Shown: positions 28,562-39,997, counted from the first letter of the stretch. The stretch: DNA of 64,000 nucleotides from an uncultured Chthonomonadaceae bacterium (GCA_963817895.1 CAWFQB010000001.1:384001-448000); one strand, 5' to 3'. Numbers and translations: made by a program. The notes: generated from the sequence alone by a model not told the origin.

Positions 28562-31500
28562 TTATTTGACGCCGGCAGGCATCTGGTCGGCTACGTCTTC
28601 CTTGCCGCCCGCTTTGGCGGCGGCGAGTTCCTGCTGTATCTGGCGGTATTCGAGGGATACCACTTTGACGAATTGCGCCTGCGTTTCGGGCCAGTTTTGC
28701 AGCAGGGACGCGCCCCGGTCGCTGCGGGTGTACTGGACGTGCCGCTCGATCAGGGTTTTCAGTTCGGCTGTGTCGGCCTCGTCCGTGACGGCTTCGAGGG
28801 CGGTTTTGCCGCCGTTGCGGTTGCAGCGGGCGGGGAAGCGGCCTTCGGGATCCCACACATAGGCCACGCCGCCGCTCATGCCCGCCGCGAAGTTGCGCCC
28901 GACATTGCCCAGCACGACAACGGTTCCGCCTGTCATGTACTCGCAGCCGTGATCGCCCGCGCCCTCCACAACCGCAGTCGCGCCGCTGTTACGAACCGCG
29001 AACCGTTCACCCACCACGCCGCGCAAAAACACTTCGCCACTGGTTGCGCCGTACAAAAGCGTATTTCCGGCAATGATGTTCTCGGCGGGGTCGAAGGGCG
29101 ATTGGCGCGGCGGGTACACGATGATGCGTCCGCCCGATATGCCCTTGCCTAAGTAGTCGTTGGAGTCGCCTTCCAGTGTCATAGTAATGCCGCGCGCCAG
29201 AAACGCGCCGAACGATTGCCCCGCGCTGCCCGTAAATTTAAGGCGAATCGTGTCTTCCGGCAGGCCCTCCTCGCCGTATTTCAGCGCGATACGTCCCGAC
29301 AGCATGGTTCCCACGGTGCGGTTCCGGTTGTAAATGGGCAGTTCCGCCGCGACGGGAATCCCTCTGTCTACCGCGCCCTGCGAAAGCGCGATCAGATGGT
29401 AGTCCAGCGCGTCGTCAAGCCCATGATCCTGATGCTTGGCCCACGCCTGCGCGTGTTTGTCCGAACCTTCGGGCTGCGTCAGAATGGGCGTCAAGTCCAA
29501 GCCTGCCGCTTTCCAATGCTCAATGGCGCAGGTGGCGTCCAGCATGTCTATGCGGCCTACCATCTCGGCAACCGAGTTGAAACCCAGTTCGGCCATGATC
29601 TCGCGCAATTCTTCGGCCACAAAGAAGAAGTAGTTGATAACGTGTTCCGGCTGGCCCGTAAACCGCTGGCGAAGCGTTGGGTCTTGCGTCGCGATGCCGA
29701 CGGGACAGGTTCCCAGATGGCATACGCGCATCATAATGCAGCCCATCGCGACAAGCGGCGCGCTGGAAAAACCGAACTCTTCCGCGCCGAGCAGGGCGGC
29801 AATCGCCACATCGCGCCCGGTCTTCAGTTGTCCGTCCGTTTGCAGGACGACGCGCCCGCGCAGGTCGTTTTTCACCAGCGTTTGCTGCGTTTCCGCCAGT
29901 CCCATTTCCCACGGAATGCCCGCGTGTTTGATGCTGGAAACGGGCGACGCGCCCGTACCGCCGTCGTAGCCGCTGATGAGGATATGGTCGGCATGGGCTT
30001 TGGACACGCCTGCGGCAACCGTGCCGACGCCCACTTCCGCCACCAGTTTCACCGAAATACGCGCGGCAGGATTGACGTTTTTCAGGTCGAAAATCAACTG
30101 CGCGAGGTCTTCAATGGAATAGATGTCGTGGTGCGGCGGCGGGGAAATAAGGGTTACGCCGGGCGTGGTATGCCGAACGCCCGCGATATAAGCGTCCACT
30201 TTGGTTCCGGGCAGTTCGCCGCCCTCGCCGGGTTTGGCGCCCTGCGCCATTTTGATCTGCAGTTCGTCGGCATTGACCAGATAATGCGCGGTGACGCCGA
30301 ACCGCGCGGACGCGACCTGTTTGATGGCGCTGCGCCGGTTGTCGCCGTTCGCGTCGGGTTTGTAGCGAGACGGGTCTTCGCCGCCCTCGCCCGTGTTGCT
30401 TTTGCCGCCCATCCAGTTCATGGCAATGGCAAGGGTTTCGTGCGCTTCGCGGCTGATGCTGCCAAGCGACATAGCCCCGGTCACAAATCGCTTCACAATC
30501 TCCCGCGCCGGTTCCACTTCCGCAATCGGGATCGGCGTCCCCGCCTTGAAATGCAGCAAACTCCGCAGGGTCGCCAGCGCCTCACTCGTATCGTTGACGT
30601 GCCTGCTGAACTCTTTGAAGTCTTTAAATCCCGGGTGTTCGGTGTTCGGTGTTCGGTGTTCGGTATCTGTCTCCTTTTCTCCTTTTATCCTTGTATCCTT
30701 GTCTCCTTGTCTCACTGCCTGCTGCAATTTCGCCACCGTATCCGGGTTGTAGGCGTGGTGTTCGCCGAAACGCCGCCACTGGTACTGCCCGCCCGGATCG
30801 AGGTCAATGCTGCCTTTGATGTCCATTTTCGGATAGGCGTACTCGTGGCGCGACAGGGCTTCGCGCTGAATGATGTCCAGTCCGATGCCGCCCAATCGGG
30901 AGGGCGTACCCGTAAAGTAATCGCTCTGACCAGTTCTTTATCCAGACCGATGGCCTCGAATATTTGCGCGCCCCGGTAGCTTTGCAGCGTGGAGATGCCC
31001 ATTTTGGCGAACGTTTTCAGCAGGCCCTTGTTGACGGCCTTGATGAAGTTGACGCTGGCTTTGTCTACCGTAATTTCGGGCGGGAACATCTTGTCGCGCC
31101 CCATGCTGTCGAGGGTTTCCAGCGCGAGATAGGGGTTGATGGCGGACGCGCCGTAGCCGATGAGCAGGGCAAAGTGCATCACTTCCCGCGCTTCGCCGGA
31201 CTCGACGATGATGCCGACGCAGGTTCGGGTTCCTTCCCGAACGAGATGATGATGCACCGCGCTTGTCGCCAACAGGCTTGGAATGGGCGCGGTATGCTCG
31301 TCCACGCCCCGGTCGGACAAAATCAGGAAGCTGTAGCCGTCCTTTACCGCCTGCGACGCGGACGCGCACAGGTTTTCGACCGCTGTTTGCAGGGCGTCGG
31401 GACCGTCCTCCACGTCGAACCACGTCGGCAGGGTTTTGGCGTTGAACTCGCCCGTGCGAACCGCCCGCAGTTTTTCCAGCTCGAAATTGTGCAGGATGGG

Positions 31501-33218
31501 CGATTCCAGTTTGAGCATGTTGGCGTGTTGGGGCGTGGCGTCGAGCAGGTTGCCGTCGCTGCCAATAAAGTCCACAAGCGACATTACCAACTCTTCGCGG
31601 ATGGGGTCAATAGGCGGGTTCGTCACCTGCGCGAAGAGCTGCTTGAAATAGTTGTACAGCAGTTGCGGGCGGCGGGACAGGACGGCGATAGGGCGTGTCC
31701 GTCCCCATGCTGCCCAGCGGCTGTTCGCCATTGGTCGCCATCGGGTACAAAATCAGGCGAATGTCTTCCAGCGTGTAGCCGAACGCTTTCTGGCGCGTGA
31801 GCAGGGTTTTCTCGTCCGGCAGATGGATAATGGGCGGTTCGGGCAGGCTGTCAAGCGTGATACGGTTCGCGTCCAGCCACTCCTTATAAGGATGCTGTGT
31901 ACAGATTTCGCGCTTGATGTCTTCGTCATCCACAATGCCGCCGCGTTCGGGATCAATCAGGAACATGCGCCCCGGCTGCAATCGGCCTTTTTGCACGATG
32001 TGGGCGGGGTCGGTATCCACGACACCCGTTTCCGAAGCGAGAACCACAATATCATCGTCCGTGACGCAGTAGCGGGCGGGACGCAGGCCGTTGCGGTCGA
32101 GCAGCGCGCCGATCACGCGGCCATCCGTGAAGCACACGGCTGCCGGTCCGTCCCAGGGTTCCATCAGGCAGGCGTGGTACTCGTAGAAGGCGCGTCGCTC
32201 CTCGTCCATCAGCGCGTCGCCGTTCCACGCTTCCGGCATGAGCATCATCATGACGTGGGGCAGGCTGCGCCCGCCGAGCGTAAGCAGTTCAACGGCGTTG
32301 TCAAGAGCCGCGCTGTCGCTGCCGGACTTGTTGATGAGCGGAAGGAGTTTCTTGATGTCGTCGCCGAACAGGTCGGAGGAGAGCGATTGTTCCCGCGCGC
32401 TCATCCAGTTGCGGTTGCCGCGCAGGGTGTTGATTTCGCCGTTGTGGGCGATGTAGCGGAAGGGGTGCGCCAAATCCCATGTCGGGAACGTGTTGGTGGA
32501 AAACCGCTGATGCACAAGGGCGAGCGATGTGGTGGTGCGCAGGTCGCTCAGGTCGAGGAAATAGGCCGCGATCTGATGCGTCATCAGCAGGCCCTTGTAA
32601 ACGATAGTGCGGCAGGACAGGCTGTTGACGTAAAAGTAGCCCTCCTGCTCCATGCACAAGTCTACAATGGCGTTTTGTACGCGGCGGCGAATGAGGTAGA
32701 GTTTGCGCTCGAAAGCGTCCTCATCGGCGGCATTGGAACCCCTGCCGATGAAAATCTGCCGGATAACGGGTTCTACAGTTCGGGCGAGAGCGCCGATTTT
32801 GGCATGGTTGATCGGCACATCGCGCCACGCCAGAACGGTTTGCCCCTCTTCCTGTTACGACCTGATTGAAAATAGCTTCGTAAGTGGCGCGTTCGTCGTC
32901 ATTCGTGGGCAGAAACAACATGCCCACGCCGTACTCGCCGGGGGCGGGAAGCGTAACGCCCGCGCCCTGTAGCTCATCCGCGAAGAACTCGTGCGGGATT
33001 TGAAACAGGATACCCGCGCCGTCGCCCGTATCCGGGTCGCTGCCGGTCGCGCCCCGGTGTTCCAGTTTGCGCAGCACATCCAGTCCCTGCTTGATAATGG
33101 CATGGGATTTATGGCCTTTGGCGTGGGCGACAAAGCCGACGCCGCAAGCGTCATGTTCAAAAGAAGGGTCGTACAATCCATGCGCGGGGGGCAGTTGGCC
33201 GGGTTTCGCTTGTTCCAT
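28562..33218 (-). CDS. gltB: Glutamate synthase large subunit; frameshifts near 32840, 31690 and 30920
   Basis: [61 protein letters not shown] and FAAGMSGG. Confidence 0.96.
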
Positions 33219-33424
33219 TTCGCGTGAGTTTCCGTTCTCGTTCGGCAAGGCGTCAAGTGACCATACGGCTTGCCGGGAACCGGAACCAACGGGAACGCGC
33301 AGGGTGAAAAAGCAGGGTTGGCGCGGTCTGCAAGCCGTATCAGGCGTGTGTGGCCGCGCATAAGAGAGGGATGAAAAGCGCGTCTGCCACAGATTGCTTC
33401 TCGTCACATCGTTGTGAAAAGGGA
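33219..33424 (-). ncRNA. Candidate structured cis-regulatory 5' leader of gltB (riboswitch-like)
   Basis: Lies between a consensus promoter and the gltB ATG, folds into a 3-way junction by eye, has an 11-bp alternative helix, and has a paralogous copy at about 39874-39964. Confidence 0.5.
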
Positions 33425-33428
33425 AGAG

Positions 33429-33458
33429 ATTATAGCATGAATAGCGCGTCTTTGTCAA
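33429..33458 (-). promoter_or_regulatory. Sigma70 promoter of gltB
   Basis: TTGACA-18 nt-TATAAT with extended -10 TG. Confidence 0.8.
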
Positions 33459-34154
33459 AGCAGTTTTTGCAAAACACAGGGTGAACGCATCTAAAATCGG
33501 AAGGAAATATGTAGAGGCAGCGTCGAAATCATGGCAATGCAGCGCTTCCAGCCCGATGTCTCATTGTGTCAGGTTGTAAGTAGAGGCGTCGTGACCTCCA
33601 AAGCGTCAGGGCGGACGAGTATATACAGGCATCATCTTGCGCCTCCCTTCCGGGTTAGATTGTTGAGAGTTGTGTTCTTCCCATGTCCTTCCCGCTCCGC
33701 GGGTAGACGCCCAGGTTGACGCCCGAGTTGTTAGGAACTCCGAACTCTCAGCGTCCCTCCACCTGACTGATTAGTAGACGCGCGTTGCGTAATTAGACGC
33801 GCTATGTACGGCAGGAGTTCGCTTCTTGCTGTTCTTTTTTCGGCTTTTTTCTGACTTTGGCAACCAGAAGTAAAGGGGGGGAGGCGTATGTCAGGGCAAA
33901 GTCACCAGAATTTGATAGTTGTTGATTAAGTTTTGATGCGTTCGCCGCGCAAATGAAGTTTAAGGCATTGGTTTGAAAGGTGTATACTTGTTTCGTGTAG
34001 TCCTATCAACAACCTATGGACAGAAACAAGGCGCGAGATGTGGCAAACAAATCATGCCGGATAGATTGAGGTGACGTATTAAACCTGAATTGTACGCAAA
34101 CTCATTATACCCGTCGGGTTTTCGCGCATAGAATTATGGACGGTTTTTCAGGCA

Positions 34155-39241: not shown

Positions 39242-39484
39242 TTGTTTGAGAGTTCACAGGGCGGAGATATTTTGAAACTCAGCGAACGCATCGGTAGGTA
39301 TACCTACCGATGCGTTTGTGCCGCAAAATTTGAACAAGCCGTCTACGTGCTGCATGTGTTCCAGAAGAAATCAAAATCAGGGATTGCCACTCCACAGGAG
39401 GAAATCGAACTGGTACATAGCAGGTATCAACGCGCAAAGGAACACTACGCAGCCACCTATGAGGATAAGGATACGCGCAAATGA
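39242..39484 (+). pseudogene. 5'-truncated RelE/ParE (Gp49/HigB-like) toxin
   Basis: TYRCV...KF..AVYVLHVFQKKSKSGIATP; N-terminal portion is missing. Confidence 0.75.
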
Positions 39485-39846
39485 CAGCCATTGTGGAGAA
39501 AGCAAGCGCACAGACAAACAAGAAAGAGGAAGAGGAAGAAGTTACGACTTCCTGCGGTAACATCTACGAGGATTTAGGACTACCGTATCCAGACGAGCGT
39601 ATGGCAAAGTCTGTGTTGACACTGGCGATTACGGATGCTATCGAAGCGCGTAAACTCACGCAGGCCGTAGCCGCGGAACTGCTTCACACGGACTGCGCTA
39701 AAATCACGGATTTACAGCGTGGACGCCTGACCCATATAACTTTCGACTGCCTGATCCGGTTCGCCAATGCGCTTGGTCTCAATGTGCAAATTACTGTTCA
39801 AGCCGCCAATGAGGAACGAGGCAAAACATCCGGCTACGCAACCTGA
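39481..39846 (+). CDS. HigA-like XRE HTH antitoxin
   Basis: SCGNIYEDLGLP, LTQAVAAELL and L..F...LG.NV.I; ATGA overlap with the toxin remnant. Confidence 0.85.
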   Translation: MTAIVEKASAQTNKKEEEEEVTTSCGNIYEDLGLPYPDERMAKSVLTLAITDAIEARKLTQAVAAELLHTDCAKITDLQRGRLTHITFDCLIRFANALGLNVQITVQAANEERGKTSGYAT

Positions 39847-39873
39847 AGAAAAGCGAGAAAGTCTACGCGATGC

Positions 39874-39997
39874 GCAAACCGCATCAGGCGTGTGGGACCG
39901 CGCGAGACAGGGAAAAGCGCGTCTGCCACAGATTGCTTCCCGTCGCGTCATTGTGAAAAGGGAGAGAATTATAGCGCAAAATGCGCTCACTTGTTAA
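39874..39997 (-). repeat. Second, diverged copy of the gltB promoter plus leader unit
   Basis: 28-bp identical block (39912..39939 = 33373..33400), a 26/30 second block, and TTAACA-18 nt-TATAAT. Confidence 0.85.

What the first reader, a model, noticed from the sequence alone, without database searches (positions are those of the whole stretch)
33219..33458. Candidate new riboswitch-like leader of glutamate synthase gltB
Seen: a consensus promoter (TTGACA-18-TATAAT) is followed by a ~200-nt leader. Its 5' part folds by eye into a 3-way junction: GCAA/UUGC; UGUGGC-AGA-CGCGC/GCGCG-GCCACA; GCC-UGAUAC-GGC. Its 3' strand AUACGGCUUGC (33330..33340) is perfectly complementary to GCAAGCCGUAU downstream (33263..33273). 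That downstream segment can instead form a 7-bp hairpin (33269..33275 with 33243..33249) about 25 nt before the start codon. Known: glutamine riboswitches (glnA and downstream-peptide motifs) control nitrogen genes, but this sequence does not resemble their consensus as I recall it. Inference: mutually exclusive helices of this kind suggest a ligand- or protein-controlled switch that may sense nitrogen status.
Basis: partly seen in the sequence, partly recalled or inferred. Interest (0 to 1): 0.78.

Follow-up and report, generated by a model that had tools for sequence, protein, structure and literature searches.

The report
Protein-type hairpin leader of gltB
The long untranslated leader of the glutamate synthase gene is a real regulatory RNA, but its conserved core is a small hairpin of the kind bound by ANTAR RNA-binding regulators, shared with the glutamine synthetase leader, rather than a demonstrable metabolite-sensing riboswitch.

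Summary
No Rfam family matches.

It shows no compensatory changes, so that fold cannot be tested by covariation.

A model of it hits once per genome, upstream of gltB, in 26 of 42 family genomes.

- Its hexaloop has A/G at position 1, an invariant G at position 4 and a C-G closing pair, which is the ANTAR signature.
- Hexaloop hairpins of this class, there with covarying stems, occur in glnA leaders and in the leader of a REC-ANTAR gene that precedes amtB-glnK.
- In three other families the gltB hairpin's 3' strand overlaps a terminator-like helix.

Best reading (0.55): an ANTAR-type, protein-controlled leader within a nitrogen-assimilation regulon.

This scan noted a similar ANTAR-type gltB leader before on other DNA (e1-5275481). 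It is a new variant of a known kind, of moderate interest.

The parts
33453..33458 (-). -35 hexamer TTGACA
   Evidence: 12 of 12 match with an 18-nt spacer. The TTGAC-17/18-TGnTAnnnT layout recurs at gltB promoters of relatives.
33429..33437 (-). Extended -10, TGcTATAAT
   Evidence: The predicted transcription start lies about 33421-33423 (inferred, no RNA data).
33421..33423 (-). CCC at or next to the predicted transcript start, conserved 5-6 nt after the -10 box
   Evidence: Alignment A1: two C columns are invariant or nearly so. It can pair with GGR after the hairpin in 22 of 25 leaders, but without covariation (permutation p = 0.96).
33404..33417 (-). P1 hairpin: UCAC (33417-33414), hexaloop AACGAU (33413-33408), GUGA (33407-33404). 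This is the conserved core and a candidate ANTAR binding site.
   Evidence: A1: CAC, loop G4 and G.G are invariant in 22 sequences. Model R1 hits upstream of gltB in 26 of 42 family genomes, one such hit per genome.
33398..33403 (-). Purine-rich linker CGAGAA (GGAG-like in other genera). It is near-complementary to UUCCCGU at 33294-33288 and repeats the ACGAGAA of the ribosome-binding region.
   Evidence: Read directly. G002 and copy 2 have ACGGGAA, a perfect 7-nt complement of UUCCCGU. The functional role is inferred.
33330..33397 (-).
   Evidence: Helices are present. The junction is the MFE in G002. G000 and G002 differ at 0 of 44 paired and 12 of 50 unpaired positions. It was not found outside the genus.
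33330..33340 (-). AUACGGCUUGC, 5' strand of the 11-bp alternative helix. It also forms the 3' strands of P3 and of GCAA/UUGC.
   Evidence: Identical in G002.
33263..33273 (-). GCAAGCCGUAU, 3' strand of the 11-bp alternative helix
   Evidence: The island CGGCAAGCCGUAU is kept at 12 of 13 positions in G002 amid diverged flanks. The one change (A to G) turns U-A into U.G.
33287..33300 (-). GCGCGUUCCCGUUG island, a putative anti-Shine-Dalgarno strand
   Evidence: Identical in G000 and G002. It pairs with AACGGAA of the ribosome-binding region in the MFE. The role is inferred.
33243..33275 (-). Local hairpin CGGCAAG/CUUGCCG with a 19-nt loop
   Evidence: Six of 7 pairs are kept in G002, with one mismatch and one wobble.
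33230..33241 (-). ACGAGAACGGAA, the probable weak ribosome-binding region
   Evidence: Identical in G000 and G002. Mean unpaired probability of the -20..-5 stretch before the ATG, which covers most of this block, is 0.44 (junction state) against 0.60 (11-bp state) in G000, and 0.18 against 0.59 in G002.
33216..33218 (-). gltB start codon ATG
   Evidence: the N-terminus aligns to GltB of 54 of 61 related genomes.
39866..39997 (-). Second, partial copy. Promoter TTAACA-18-TATAAT (39997-39968), P1-like hairpin (39956-39943, whose 3' strand reads GCGA) and the junction region, about 83% identical. No gltB follows.
   Evidence: (35.1 bits). Its transcript would run antisense to a HigA-like ORF at 39481-39846.

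Best explanation
The gltB leader is a protein-controlled regulatory RNA of the ANTAR type and belongs to a nitrogen-assimilation regulon.

Shown:
- The transcript is predicted to begin at a conserved CCC, followed at once by hairpin P1 (UCAC-AACGAU-GUGA). Its hexaloop has A at position 1 and G at position 4 and is closed by a C-G pair.
- This hairpin is the only part of the leader conserved across the family.
- It is specific to gltB leaders.
- Hexaloop hairpins of this class recur in glnA leaders and in the leader of a REC-ANTAR response-regulator gene. In this genus that gene precedes the genome's only amtB and glnK genes found with the Pfam models.
- In other families, and in one genus of this family, the 3' strand of the gltB hairpin is also the 5' strand of a terminator-like helix.

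Inferred:
- An activated ANTAR regulator binds the hexaloop and holds P1.
- In those relatives this would prevent termination.
- G000 and G002 have no terminator. That platform comprises the 11-bp alternative helix and the UUCCCGUUG/AACGGAA helix that covers the ribosome-binding region. The purine-rich linker after P1 could compete for the anti-Shine-Dalgarno strand.
- The direction of the response, and which of the four ANTAR proteins acts, are unknown.
For: 1. Conservation and specificity.
- Alignment A1 of 22 sequences has invariant CAC, loop G4 and G.G.
- Model R1 hits 31 of 42 family genomes at E <= 0.01. The 22 genomes with E < 1e-4, plus 4 weaker ones, have their hit upstream of gltB (coordinates).
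- The only other strong hit is G000's second copy.
- The 15 weak hits elsewhere that I inspected, of about 24 listed, lie in reading frames or at terminator-like hairpins.
- Genome-wide, CCC..TTCAC..GTG follows a promoter only at gltB (1 of 28 matches).

2. Strand-asymmetric conservation. Loop position 4 is always G while its palindromic partner, position 3, varies. Position 1 is A or G.

3. Terminator overlap in relatives.
- In families f2 and f3, 17 leaders carry CACGG-UWCC-[RANGAC]-GC-CCGUG.
- Its 3' strand pairs with a downstream GGACACGGGC followed by a mostly U-rich tail (mean z = -2.1; 8 of 17 below -2).
- The same layout holds in 3 of 3 strong hits checked in family f16 and in genus g4 of this family.

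4. Regulon.
- Hexaloop hairpins (R1, G4, C-G closed, at least 4 bp) occur in 25 of 30 glnA upstream regions, against a shuffle mean of 5.8 (max 12).
- They occur in 22 of 30 leaders of the REC-ANTAR orthologue, against a shuffle mean of 3.3 (max 9).
- The genome background is 0.83 per kb.
- The glnA hairpin H1 covaries: 79.5% of cells paired against 62.2%, score 0.508 against 0.182, 0 of 500 shuffles as high.
- G000 itself has CAGGC-AAUGAG-GCUUG in the glnA leader and UGGC-AAUGCU-GCUA in the regulator's leader.

5. Regulator.
- ANTAR domains are present in 42 of 42 family genomes, 2-5 each.
- One REC-ANTAR gene has an orthologue in 46 of 46 order genomes searched.
- In G000, G001 and G002 it lies upstream of a porin gene and amtB; in G000 glnK follows too. 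In G000 these are the only matches to the amtB and P-II models.

6. Literature.
- A1/G4 hexaloops define ANTAR targets, and ANTAR sites were predicted at glutamate synthase genes of Desulfotomaculum reducens (PMC3369931, passages).
- The minimal ANTAR site was redefined as a single hexaloop (PMC8934654, abstract and passages).
- The ANTAR protein NitR induces GS/GOGAT genes in Clostridium saccharobutylicum (passage in PMC6316151).
Against: - No second hexaloop hairpin is conserved within 2-25 nt of P1, so the classical dual-hairpin definition is not met.
- The P1 stem never varies, so there is no covariation for it. Its outer CCC/GGR extension fails a permutation test (p = 0.96).
- G000 has no terminator-like site in the leader. 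The P1 3' strand has no significant alternative partner in this family (z near 0), so the link from P1 to gene expression in G000 is unexplained.
- ANTAR genes are also present in genomes that lack the hairpin, G001 for example, so presence and absence do not discriminate.
- The regulator-amtB linkage holds in 3 of 6 genomes checked, all of one genus.
- Loop position 1 is G rather than A in about a quarter of sequences.
- Related genomes are not independent, so the enrichment figures overstate the support.
- No RNA data exist for the transcript start.
Confidence: 0.55

Rival explanations
1. Metabolite-sensing riboswitch. The three-way junction binds a nitrogen-status ligand. Binding decides between the junction and the 11-bp long-range helix, and so sets access to the ribosome-binding region.
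For: - The 11-nt perfect complement is rare by chance (4 of 1000 shuffles).
- Both of its strands are conserved islands in G002, and the single change keeps a U.G pair.
- All 12 G000/G002 differences in the 5' domain avoid the 44 paired positions.
- With each state enforced, the ensembles are equal in G000 (-68.8 kcal/mol both). The 11-bp state exposes the ribosome-binding region more: 0.60 against 0.44 in G000, 0.59 against 0.18 in G002.
- No known family matches, so it would be new.
Against: - The fold is found in only two species plus a decaying copy, at about 82% identity, with no compensatory pair.
- G001 lacks it.
- A metagenome scan with a 22-nt pattern found no further homologue.
- Across genera the P2 helix shows no species-specific complementarity (p = 0.19; mean z = -0.5).
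- The leader as a whole is no more stable than shuffles (z = -1.25).
- The junction has no conserved unpaired nucleotides across genera of the kind that would mark a binding pocket.
- The family-wide conserved element is a simple hairpin outside the junction.
Confidence: 0.12
2. DNA operator. The palindrome TTCAC-N6-GTGA(A), centred about 15 bp after the transcription start, is the binding site of a dimeric repressor that blocks initiation or early elongation of gltB.
For: - The half-sites are invariant in sequence rather than covarying.
- The element sits at a fixed distance from the -10 box in this family.
- The flanking CCC and GGR extend the palindrome without covariation.
Against: - Conservation is asymmetric: position 4 of the spacer is always G while its mirror position 3 is free.
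- In families f2, f3 and f16 the CAC and GUG halves are 16-17 nt apart instead of 6, yet the hexamer between them stays conserved.
- In those families the distance from the -10 box varies.
- There the 3' half is part of a terminator-like RNA helix.
- Hexaloops of this class occur in glnA leaders on stems that covary, which is an RNA-level signature.
- No regulator gene is evident next to gltB in G000 or G002.
Confidence: 0.12
3. Unregulated 5' stabiliser. A 5'-terminal hairpin followed by a Shine-Dalgarno-like GGAG protects the long gltB mRNA from 5' exonucleolytic decay. The remaining helices are incidental folding of a GC-rich leader.
For: - The hairpin lies at the very 5' end.
- A GGAG-like purine block follows it in most genera.
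- The overall fold and the P2 helix are no better than controls.
- That 5' hairpins and SD-like 'STAB-SD' elements stabilise mRNAs in Bacillus is recalled, not looked up here.
Against: - A protective hairpin needs neither an invariant stem sequence nor an invariant loop G4.
- It would not need to overlap a terminator in four lineages.
- It would not share its loop class with the glnA leaders and the regulator's leader.
Confidence: 0.1

Closest known systems
ANTAR target RNAs: EutV/eut leaders of Enterococcus faecalis, NasR/nasF, AmiR/amiE (Ramesh et al. 2012, PMC3369931; Walshe et al. 2022, PMC8934654)
   Same: - A short hairpin with a hexanucleotide loop, A (or G) at position 1, G at position 4 and a sequence-conserved closing pair.
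- In relatives the hairpin's 3' half overlaps a terminator.
- REC-ANTAR regulators are encoded in every genome of the family.
- The context is nitrogen metabolism.
   Different: - The gltB leader has one hexaloop hairpin, not two separated by 2-25 nt.
- It sits at the extreme 5' end of the transcript.
- Its stem is invariant in sequence.
- G000 has no terminator after it.
- Binding has not been tested.
NitR, the ANTAR regulator of the glnA-nitR-gltAB cluster of Clostridium saccharobutylicum (Stutz et al. 2007, known here only through a passage in PMC6316151)
   Same: An ANTAR-family RNA-binding protein is reported to induce both GS and GOGAT genes by antitermination under nitrogen limitation. 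That is the regulon content proposed here.
   Different: - The phylum is different.
- Here the regulator gene is not clustered with glnA or gltB; in this genus it precedes porin-amtB-glnK.
- I did not see NitR's RNA sites, so no sequence comparison was possible.
Glutamine riboswitch (glnA RNA motif, Rfam RF01739, and related glutamine-II)
   Same: A cis-acting RNA in the leader of a nitrogen-assimilation gene.
   Different: No match to any Rfam model at E <= 10 in 33100-33700, and none at gathering score in the whole window. No conserved multi-helix aptamer. The family number and name are recalled.
   Same: The same gene, the same proposed regulator class and the same phylum. The f2/f3/f16 type of hairpin that I found may be what that note describes.
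   Different: That note reports two small hairpins in a short leader and a single ANTAR gene. Here there is one hairpin in a 200-nt leader, four ANTAR genes and a genus-specific structured extension. I could not see its sequence.

Membership tests
ANTAR target RNA | Hairpin of at least 3 bp with a hexanucleotide terminal loop | tested here: met
   UCAC-AACGAU-GUGA at 33417-33404. The CAC-N6-GUG core is matched by 21 of 29 usable gltB upstream regions.
ANTAR target RNA | A at loop position 1 and G at loop position 4 | tested here: met
   The G000 loop is AACGAU. G4 is invariant in 22 of 22 rows of A1. Position 1 is A or G; G at position 1 departs from the published consensus.
ANTAR target RNA | Two such hairpins in tandem with a 2-25 nt linker (Ramesh 2012; Mehta 2021) | tested here: not met
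   No second [AG]NNGNN hexaloop hairpin at a consistent place in 25 leaders, and none in G000. P3 has the loop UGAUAC. The 2022 redefinition to a single hexaloop would admit it.
ANTAR target RNA | The hairpin competes with an intrinsic terminator or with the ribosome-binding site | tested here: inconclusive
   Not in G000: there is no terminator in the leader and no significant alternative partner. It is met in relatives: 17 f2/f3 leaders, 3 f16 leaders and genus g4.
ANTAR target RNA | An ANTAR-domain protein is encoded in the genome | tested here: met
   Four PF03861 matches in G000 and matches in 42 of 42 family genomes. REC+ANTAR architecture confirmed for two of them.
ANTAR target RNA | Specific binding by the ANTAR protein, dependent on A1 and G4 | not testable with these tools
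   Needs EMSA or a reporter assay.
Riboswitch (known classes) | Match to a curated covariance model | tested here: not met
   No hits at gathering score in the window and none at E <= 10 in 33100-33700. Nothing relevant in 20 related gltB leaders or 6 glnA/regulator loci.
Riboswitch (new class) | Multi-helix aptamer supported by covariation in several lineages | tested here: not met
   The junction is alignable only with G002 and copy 2, with no compensatory pair. P2 own-versus-cross complementarity gives p = 0.19. No new homologues were found in metagenomes with the one pattern tried.
Riboswitch (new class) | Mutually exclusive helices coupled to an expression signal | tested here: met
   In silico only. 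The junction state and the 11-bp state are equal in ensemble energy in G000, and they change the unpaired probability of the ribosome-binding region.
Riboswitch (new class) | Direct ligand binding | not testable with these tools
   Needs in-line probing or ITC.

The most novel reading that the evidence does not exclude
In this genus the ANTAR-type hairpin has been joined to a second, independent sensor. On this reading the three-way junction and its 11-bp alternative helix form a true ligand-responsive switch, so gltB translation would integrate a protein signal and a metabolite signal in one leader.

The truncated second copy at 39866-39997 keeps a promoter, a hairpin and the junction but has no gene. 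It could be a small decoy RNA that titrates the regulator, as EutX/Rli55 does for EutV (that comparison is partly recalled and is mentioned).
Probability: 0.1. Interest if true: 0.75.

Novelty: new variant of a known kind. Interest (0 to 1): 0.5.

Why it matters
Nitrogen assimilation through glutamine synthetase and glutamate synthase is controlled by DNA-binding regulators in the model bacteria. RNA-level control by ANTAR proteins has been shown for these genes only in one Clostridium, as far as the passages I read go.

If this reading holds, a poorly studied soil phylum runs its core ammonium-assimilation genes through one hexaloop-binding regulator. Those genes are glnA, gltB and, in this genus, the amtB-glnK operon's regulator gene. 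The site type would be a single 5'-terminal hexaloop, which the 2022 structural work predicted but did not exemplify.

It also gives a concrete, cheap test set: one protein, three short RNAs and two point mutations. And it offers a natural series in which the same hairpin is coupled to a terminator in some lineages and to a long structured leader in others.

Tried and rejected
- Known RNA family: rejected.
- Regulon of identical hairpins elsewhere in the genome: rejected. R1 and a pattern scan find only gltB and its partial copy. The 15 weaker hits that I inspected lie in reading frames or at terminator-like hairpins.
- Second ANTAR hexaloop next to P1: not found.
- Alternative partner for the P1 3' strand in this family: z near 0, apart from a terminator-like helix seen in genus g4.
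- Covariation of the outer CCC/GGR helix: none (p = 0.96).
- P2 as a helix conserved across genera: looked convincing by eye, but it fails against shuffles (mean z = -0.5) and against cross-species partners (p = 0.19).
- RNAalifold on five leaders of genus g19 gave a weak consensus: covariation term -0.36, 4 of 43 pairs with a compensatory change.
- Leader peptide after the GGAG block: by eye there is no conserved start codon or frame.
- The search for related loci on genome contigs with the GltB N-terminus returned only distant phyla and no relatives, so organism names were not obtained. The phylum name comes from earlier notes of this scan.
- Metagenome scan with a 22-nt pattern: 2 near-identical loci in an unrelated context and no new leader.
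- Expression data: no RNA holder listed among 18 runs. No reads were laid.
- One paper reading failed on a too-short term and was repeated correctly.

Full report
**What is in the sequence**

gltB lies on the minus strand and starts at ATG 33218-33216. Its N-terminus aligns to GltB in 54 of 61 related genomes.

Upstream is a perfect sigma-70-type promoter: TTGACA, an 18-nt spacer, then TGcTATAAT (33458-33429; 12 of 12 with a TG extension). That leaves a leader of about 200 nt.

- An 11-nt perfect complement occurs in only 4 of 1000 dinucleotide shuffles.
- The leader as a whole is no more stable than shuffles (z = -1.25).
- The three-way junction is not in the MFE of the 226-nt G000 fold. A second G000 fold has P2 and P3, and the full junction is the MFE in the congener G002.
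- No Rfam family matches: none at gathering score in the window and none at E <= 10 in 33100-33700.

gltB is split over at least four reading frames. amtB and a porin gene elsewhere in the genome are also fragmented. The assembly is 81% complete in 14 contigs. I read this as indel errors, so the leader itself may contain one.

By BLAST the whole leader is found only in G002, at 82% identity. A 110-nt partial copy at 83% sits in the same window at 39866-39975.

The third congener, G001, has an unrelated gltB upstream region and no model hit.

In the 5' domain, G000 and G002 differ at 0 of 44 paired and 12 of 50 unpaired positions. Eight of the twelve cluster in the P2 loop, so the independent events number about six.

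The 3' strand of the 11-bp helix lies in a 13-nt island kept at 12 of 13 positions amid diverged flanks. The one change turns U-A into U.G. The local hairpin keeps 6 of 7 pairs.

With each state enforced, the two ensembles are equal in G000 (-68.8 kcal/mol each) and differ in G002 (-71.9 against -65.3). The 11-bp state exposes the ribosome-binding region more: 0.60 against 0.44 in G000 and 0.59 against 0.18 in G002.

So the switch is plausible within the genus. But there is no compensatory change, and a metagenome scan with a 22-nt pattern found no further homologue.

Across genera a long hairpin at the P2 position looked covarying by eye. It fails both controls: mean z = -0.5 against shuffles and p = 0.19 for own against cross-species partners.

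**The element that is conserved**

It follows the -10 box directly: CCC, 1-4 nt, UUCAC, six nt, GUGA(A), then a GGAG-like block.
- 21 of 29 usable upstream regions match it.
- In alignment A1 (22 sequences), CAC, the fourth loop position (G) and G.G are invariant.
- In G000 this is UCAC-AACGAU-GUGA at 33417-33404.

A covariance model of the region (R1) hit 31 of 42 family genomes at E <= 0.01.
- The 22 genomes with E < 1e-4, plus four weaker ones, have their hit just upstream of gltB. The only other strong hit is the second copy in G000.
- The 15 weak hits elsewhere that I inspected lie in reading frames or at terminator-like hairpins.
- In G000 the motif follows a promoter only at gltB (1 of 28 pattern matches).

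Leaders range from about 75 to 290 nt, and the shortest keep only this hairpin.

**RNA or DNA?**

The stem is invariant, so it gives no covariation. The possible CCC/GGR extension fails a permutation test (p = 0.96).

Four observations favour RNA.
- Conservation is strand-asymmetric. Loop position 4 is always G while its mirror position varies.
- In families f2 and f3 the corresponding element is CACGG-UWCC-[RANGAC]-GC-CCGUG. The same hexamer class sits on a longer stem and at variable distance from the -10 box.
- In 17 such leaders the 3' strand pairs with a downstream GGACACGGGC followed by a mostly U-rich tail (mean z = -2.1; 8 of 17 below -2). This is an antiterminator/terminator layout.
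- That layout recurs in genus g4 of this family and in family f16. A model of the f3 type hit 15 of 151 sampled phylum genomes, 10 of 13 in f16. The three strong f16 hits that I checked lie upstream of gltB; the two weakest hits do not.

**Link to ANTAR regulators**

A hexaloop with A at position 1 and G at position 4 and a conserved closing pair defines ANTAR targets (PMC3369931 and PMC8164766, passages). The classical target has two hairpins 2-25 nt apart. I found no conserved second hairpin next to P1, so that feature is not met.

Walshe et al. 2022 redefine the minimal site as a single hexaloop, with G4 stacking on a tyrosine (PMC8934654, abstract and passages).

ANTAR domains occur in 42 of 42 family genomes, 2-5 each. 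That is permissive but does not discriminate.

One REC-ANTAR gene of G000 (contig 5) lies on the same strand directly upstream of a porin gene. After the porin come the genome's only match to the amtB model and its only match to the P-II model.
- The regulator-amtB linkage holds in G001 and G002 but not in three other genera.
- The regulator has a clear orthologue in 46 of 46 order genomes searched.
- Its own leader starts with UGGC-AAUGCU-GCUA after a 12/12 promoter. In the three congeners the stem changes as UGGC/GCUA, UAGC/GCUG and CAGC/GCUG.

The glnA leader of G000 carries CAGGC-AAUGAG-GCUUG.

Across relatives, hexaloop hairpins with R1, G4, a C-G closure and at least 4 bp are enriched.
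- They occur in 25 of 30 glnA upstream regions (shuffle mean 5.8, max 12).
- They occur in 22 of 30 regulator leaders (shuffle mean 3.3, max 9).
- The genome background is 0.83 per kb.

The first glnA hairpin covaries strongly: 79.5% of cells paired against 62.2%, score 0.508 against 0.182, 0 of 500 shuffles as high, and slid controls at most 0.276. I picked those windows by the pattern GC-loop-GC, so the two inner pairs are there by construction and the signal comes from the outer pairs.

A second glnA hairpin about 45 nt downstream has an outer stem, an internal loop and (A)C-[RAUGUC]-G(U). That resembles both the f3 gltB hairpin and P1 (read by eye). In G000 its loop is AACAGC, without G4.

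**Mechanism**

For the lineages with a terminator the inference is the standard one: the activated regulator holds the hexaloop hairpin, and the terminator cannot form.

For G000 and G002 there is no terminator, and the P1 3' strand has no significant competitor. The conserved islands downstream are:
- GCGCGUUCCCGUUG;
- CGGCAAGCCGU;
- ACGAGAACGGAA.

The first pairs with the third and covers the weak ribosome-binding region. The second is the partner of the junction's 3' strand.

The linker after P1 (ACGAGAA; ACGGGAA in G002 and in copy 2) is complementary to UUCCCGU, and in G000 it repeats the ACGAGAA of the ribosome-binding block.

**Comparison and novelty**

ANTAR control of GS/GOGAT genes is reported for NitR of Clostridium saccharobutylicum (passage in PMC6316151; the original paper was not seen). 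ANTAR sites at glutamate synthase genes were predicted in Desulfotomaculum reducens.

A literature search on ANTAR, the two enzyme names, antitermination and nitrogen listed 15 of 141 papers, none about this phylum.

Earlier notes of this scan call the genome Armatimonadota (not tested here). They also record an ANTAR-type gltB leader in another genome of that phylum (e1-5275481). My results agree with that note and extend it:
- a single-hairpin variant at the 5' end;
- the glnA leader and the regulator's own leader as further members;
- a genus-specific structured extension.

I file this as a new variant of a known kind. The metabolite-riboswitch reading is not excluded for the genus-specific junction, but no comparative evidence supports it.

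Noticed in passing
window 39866-39997 (minus): A second copy of the gltB promoter (TTAACA-18-TATAAT), the P1 hairpin (3' strand GCGA, one pair broken) and the junction region, about 83% identical, with no gltB after it. At several positions it resembles G002's leader more than G000's own. Its transcript would run antisense to a HigA-like gene. It could be a decaying duplicate or a small RNA.
   Followed up: partly
window 39242-39846 (plus); L010 2437-3073: HigB/HigA-like toxin-antitoxin ORFs lie next to copy 2 in G000. In G002 their orthologues lie directly upstream of the gltB promoter. G000 thus seems to have about 5.7 kb (33.5-39.2 kb, including PEP-CTERM-type and paralogous secreted-protein ORFs) inserted between the gltB promoter and the higBA pair.
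   Followed up: partly
window 28562-33218 (minus); G000 contig 5, 531494-534856: gltB is split over at least four overlapping reading frames. amtB (4 pieces) and a BBP2 porin gene (3 pieces) are fragmented too. Genome completeness is 81% in 14 contigs. This is most likely indel error in a long-read assembly, not pseudogenes.
   Followed up: partly
L185 4357-4740 (minus) = G000 contig 5, between the REC-ANTAR gene and the porin-amtB-glnK genes: The hairpin CUCACAGAC-ACAUUCCC-GUCUGUGAG is followed by a terminator-like hairpin, AGACAGGC-CACCA-GCCUGUUU plus a U-rich tail. GUCUGU can alternatively pair with the ACAGAC of the terminator. It looks like an attenuator inside the operon, and its loop is not a hexaloop.
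   Followed up: no
L186 1708-2014 (minus) = glnA leader of G000: A 300-nt glnA leader follows a TTGACA-17-TGCTATACT promoter. It has two hexaloop-type hairpins about 45 nt apart and a conserved AGCGUUC block. The layout is conserved in most genera of the family, and no Rfam family matches. It is a stronger candidate for a structured regulatory RNA than the gltB junction.
   Followed up: partly
L252 and L253 (metagenome contigs), positions 401-422: A 23-nt identity to the leader segment GAAGCAAUCUGUGGCAGACGCGC lies at the start of an unrelated ORF (MKQSVADAQ..., with an HxT motif as in 2'-5' RNA ligase-type proteins, named from memory). About 0.1 chance matches were expected, so this is probably chance. 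Descent of the leader segment from a gene fragment is not excluded.
   Followed up: no
L125-L127, L124, L134 (gltB leaders of genus g19): RNAalifold pairs the P1 loop and 3' strand (CAGNGUNGU) with a segment just after the long hairpin (GCAAUGCUG-like), with one compensatory column. This is a possible anti-P1 helix in that genus. I saw no counterpart in G000 by eye.
   Followed up: no
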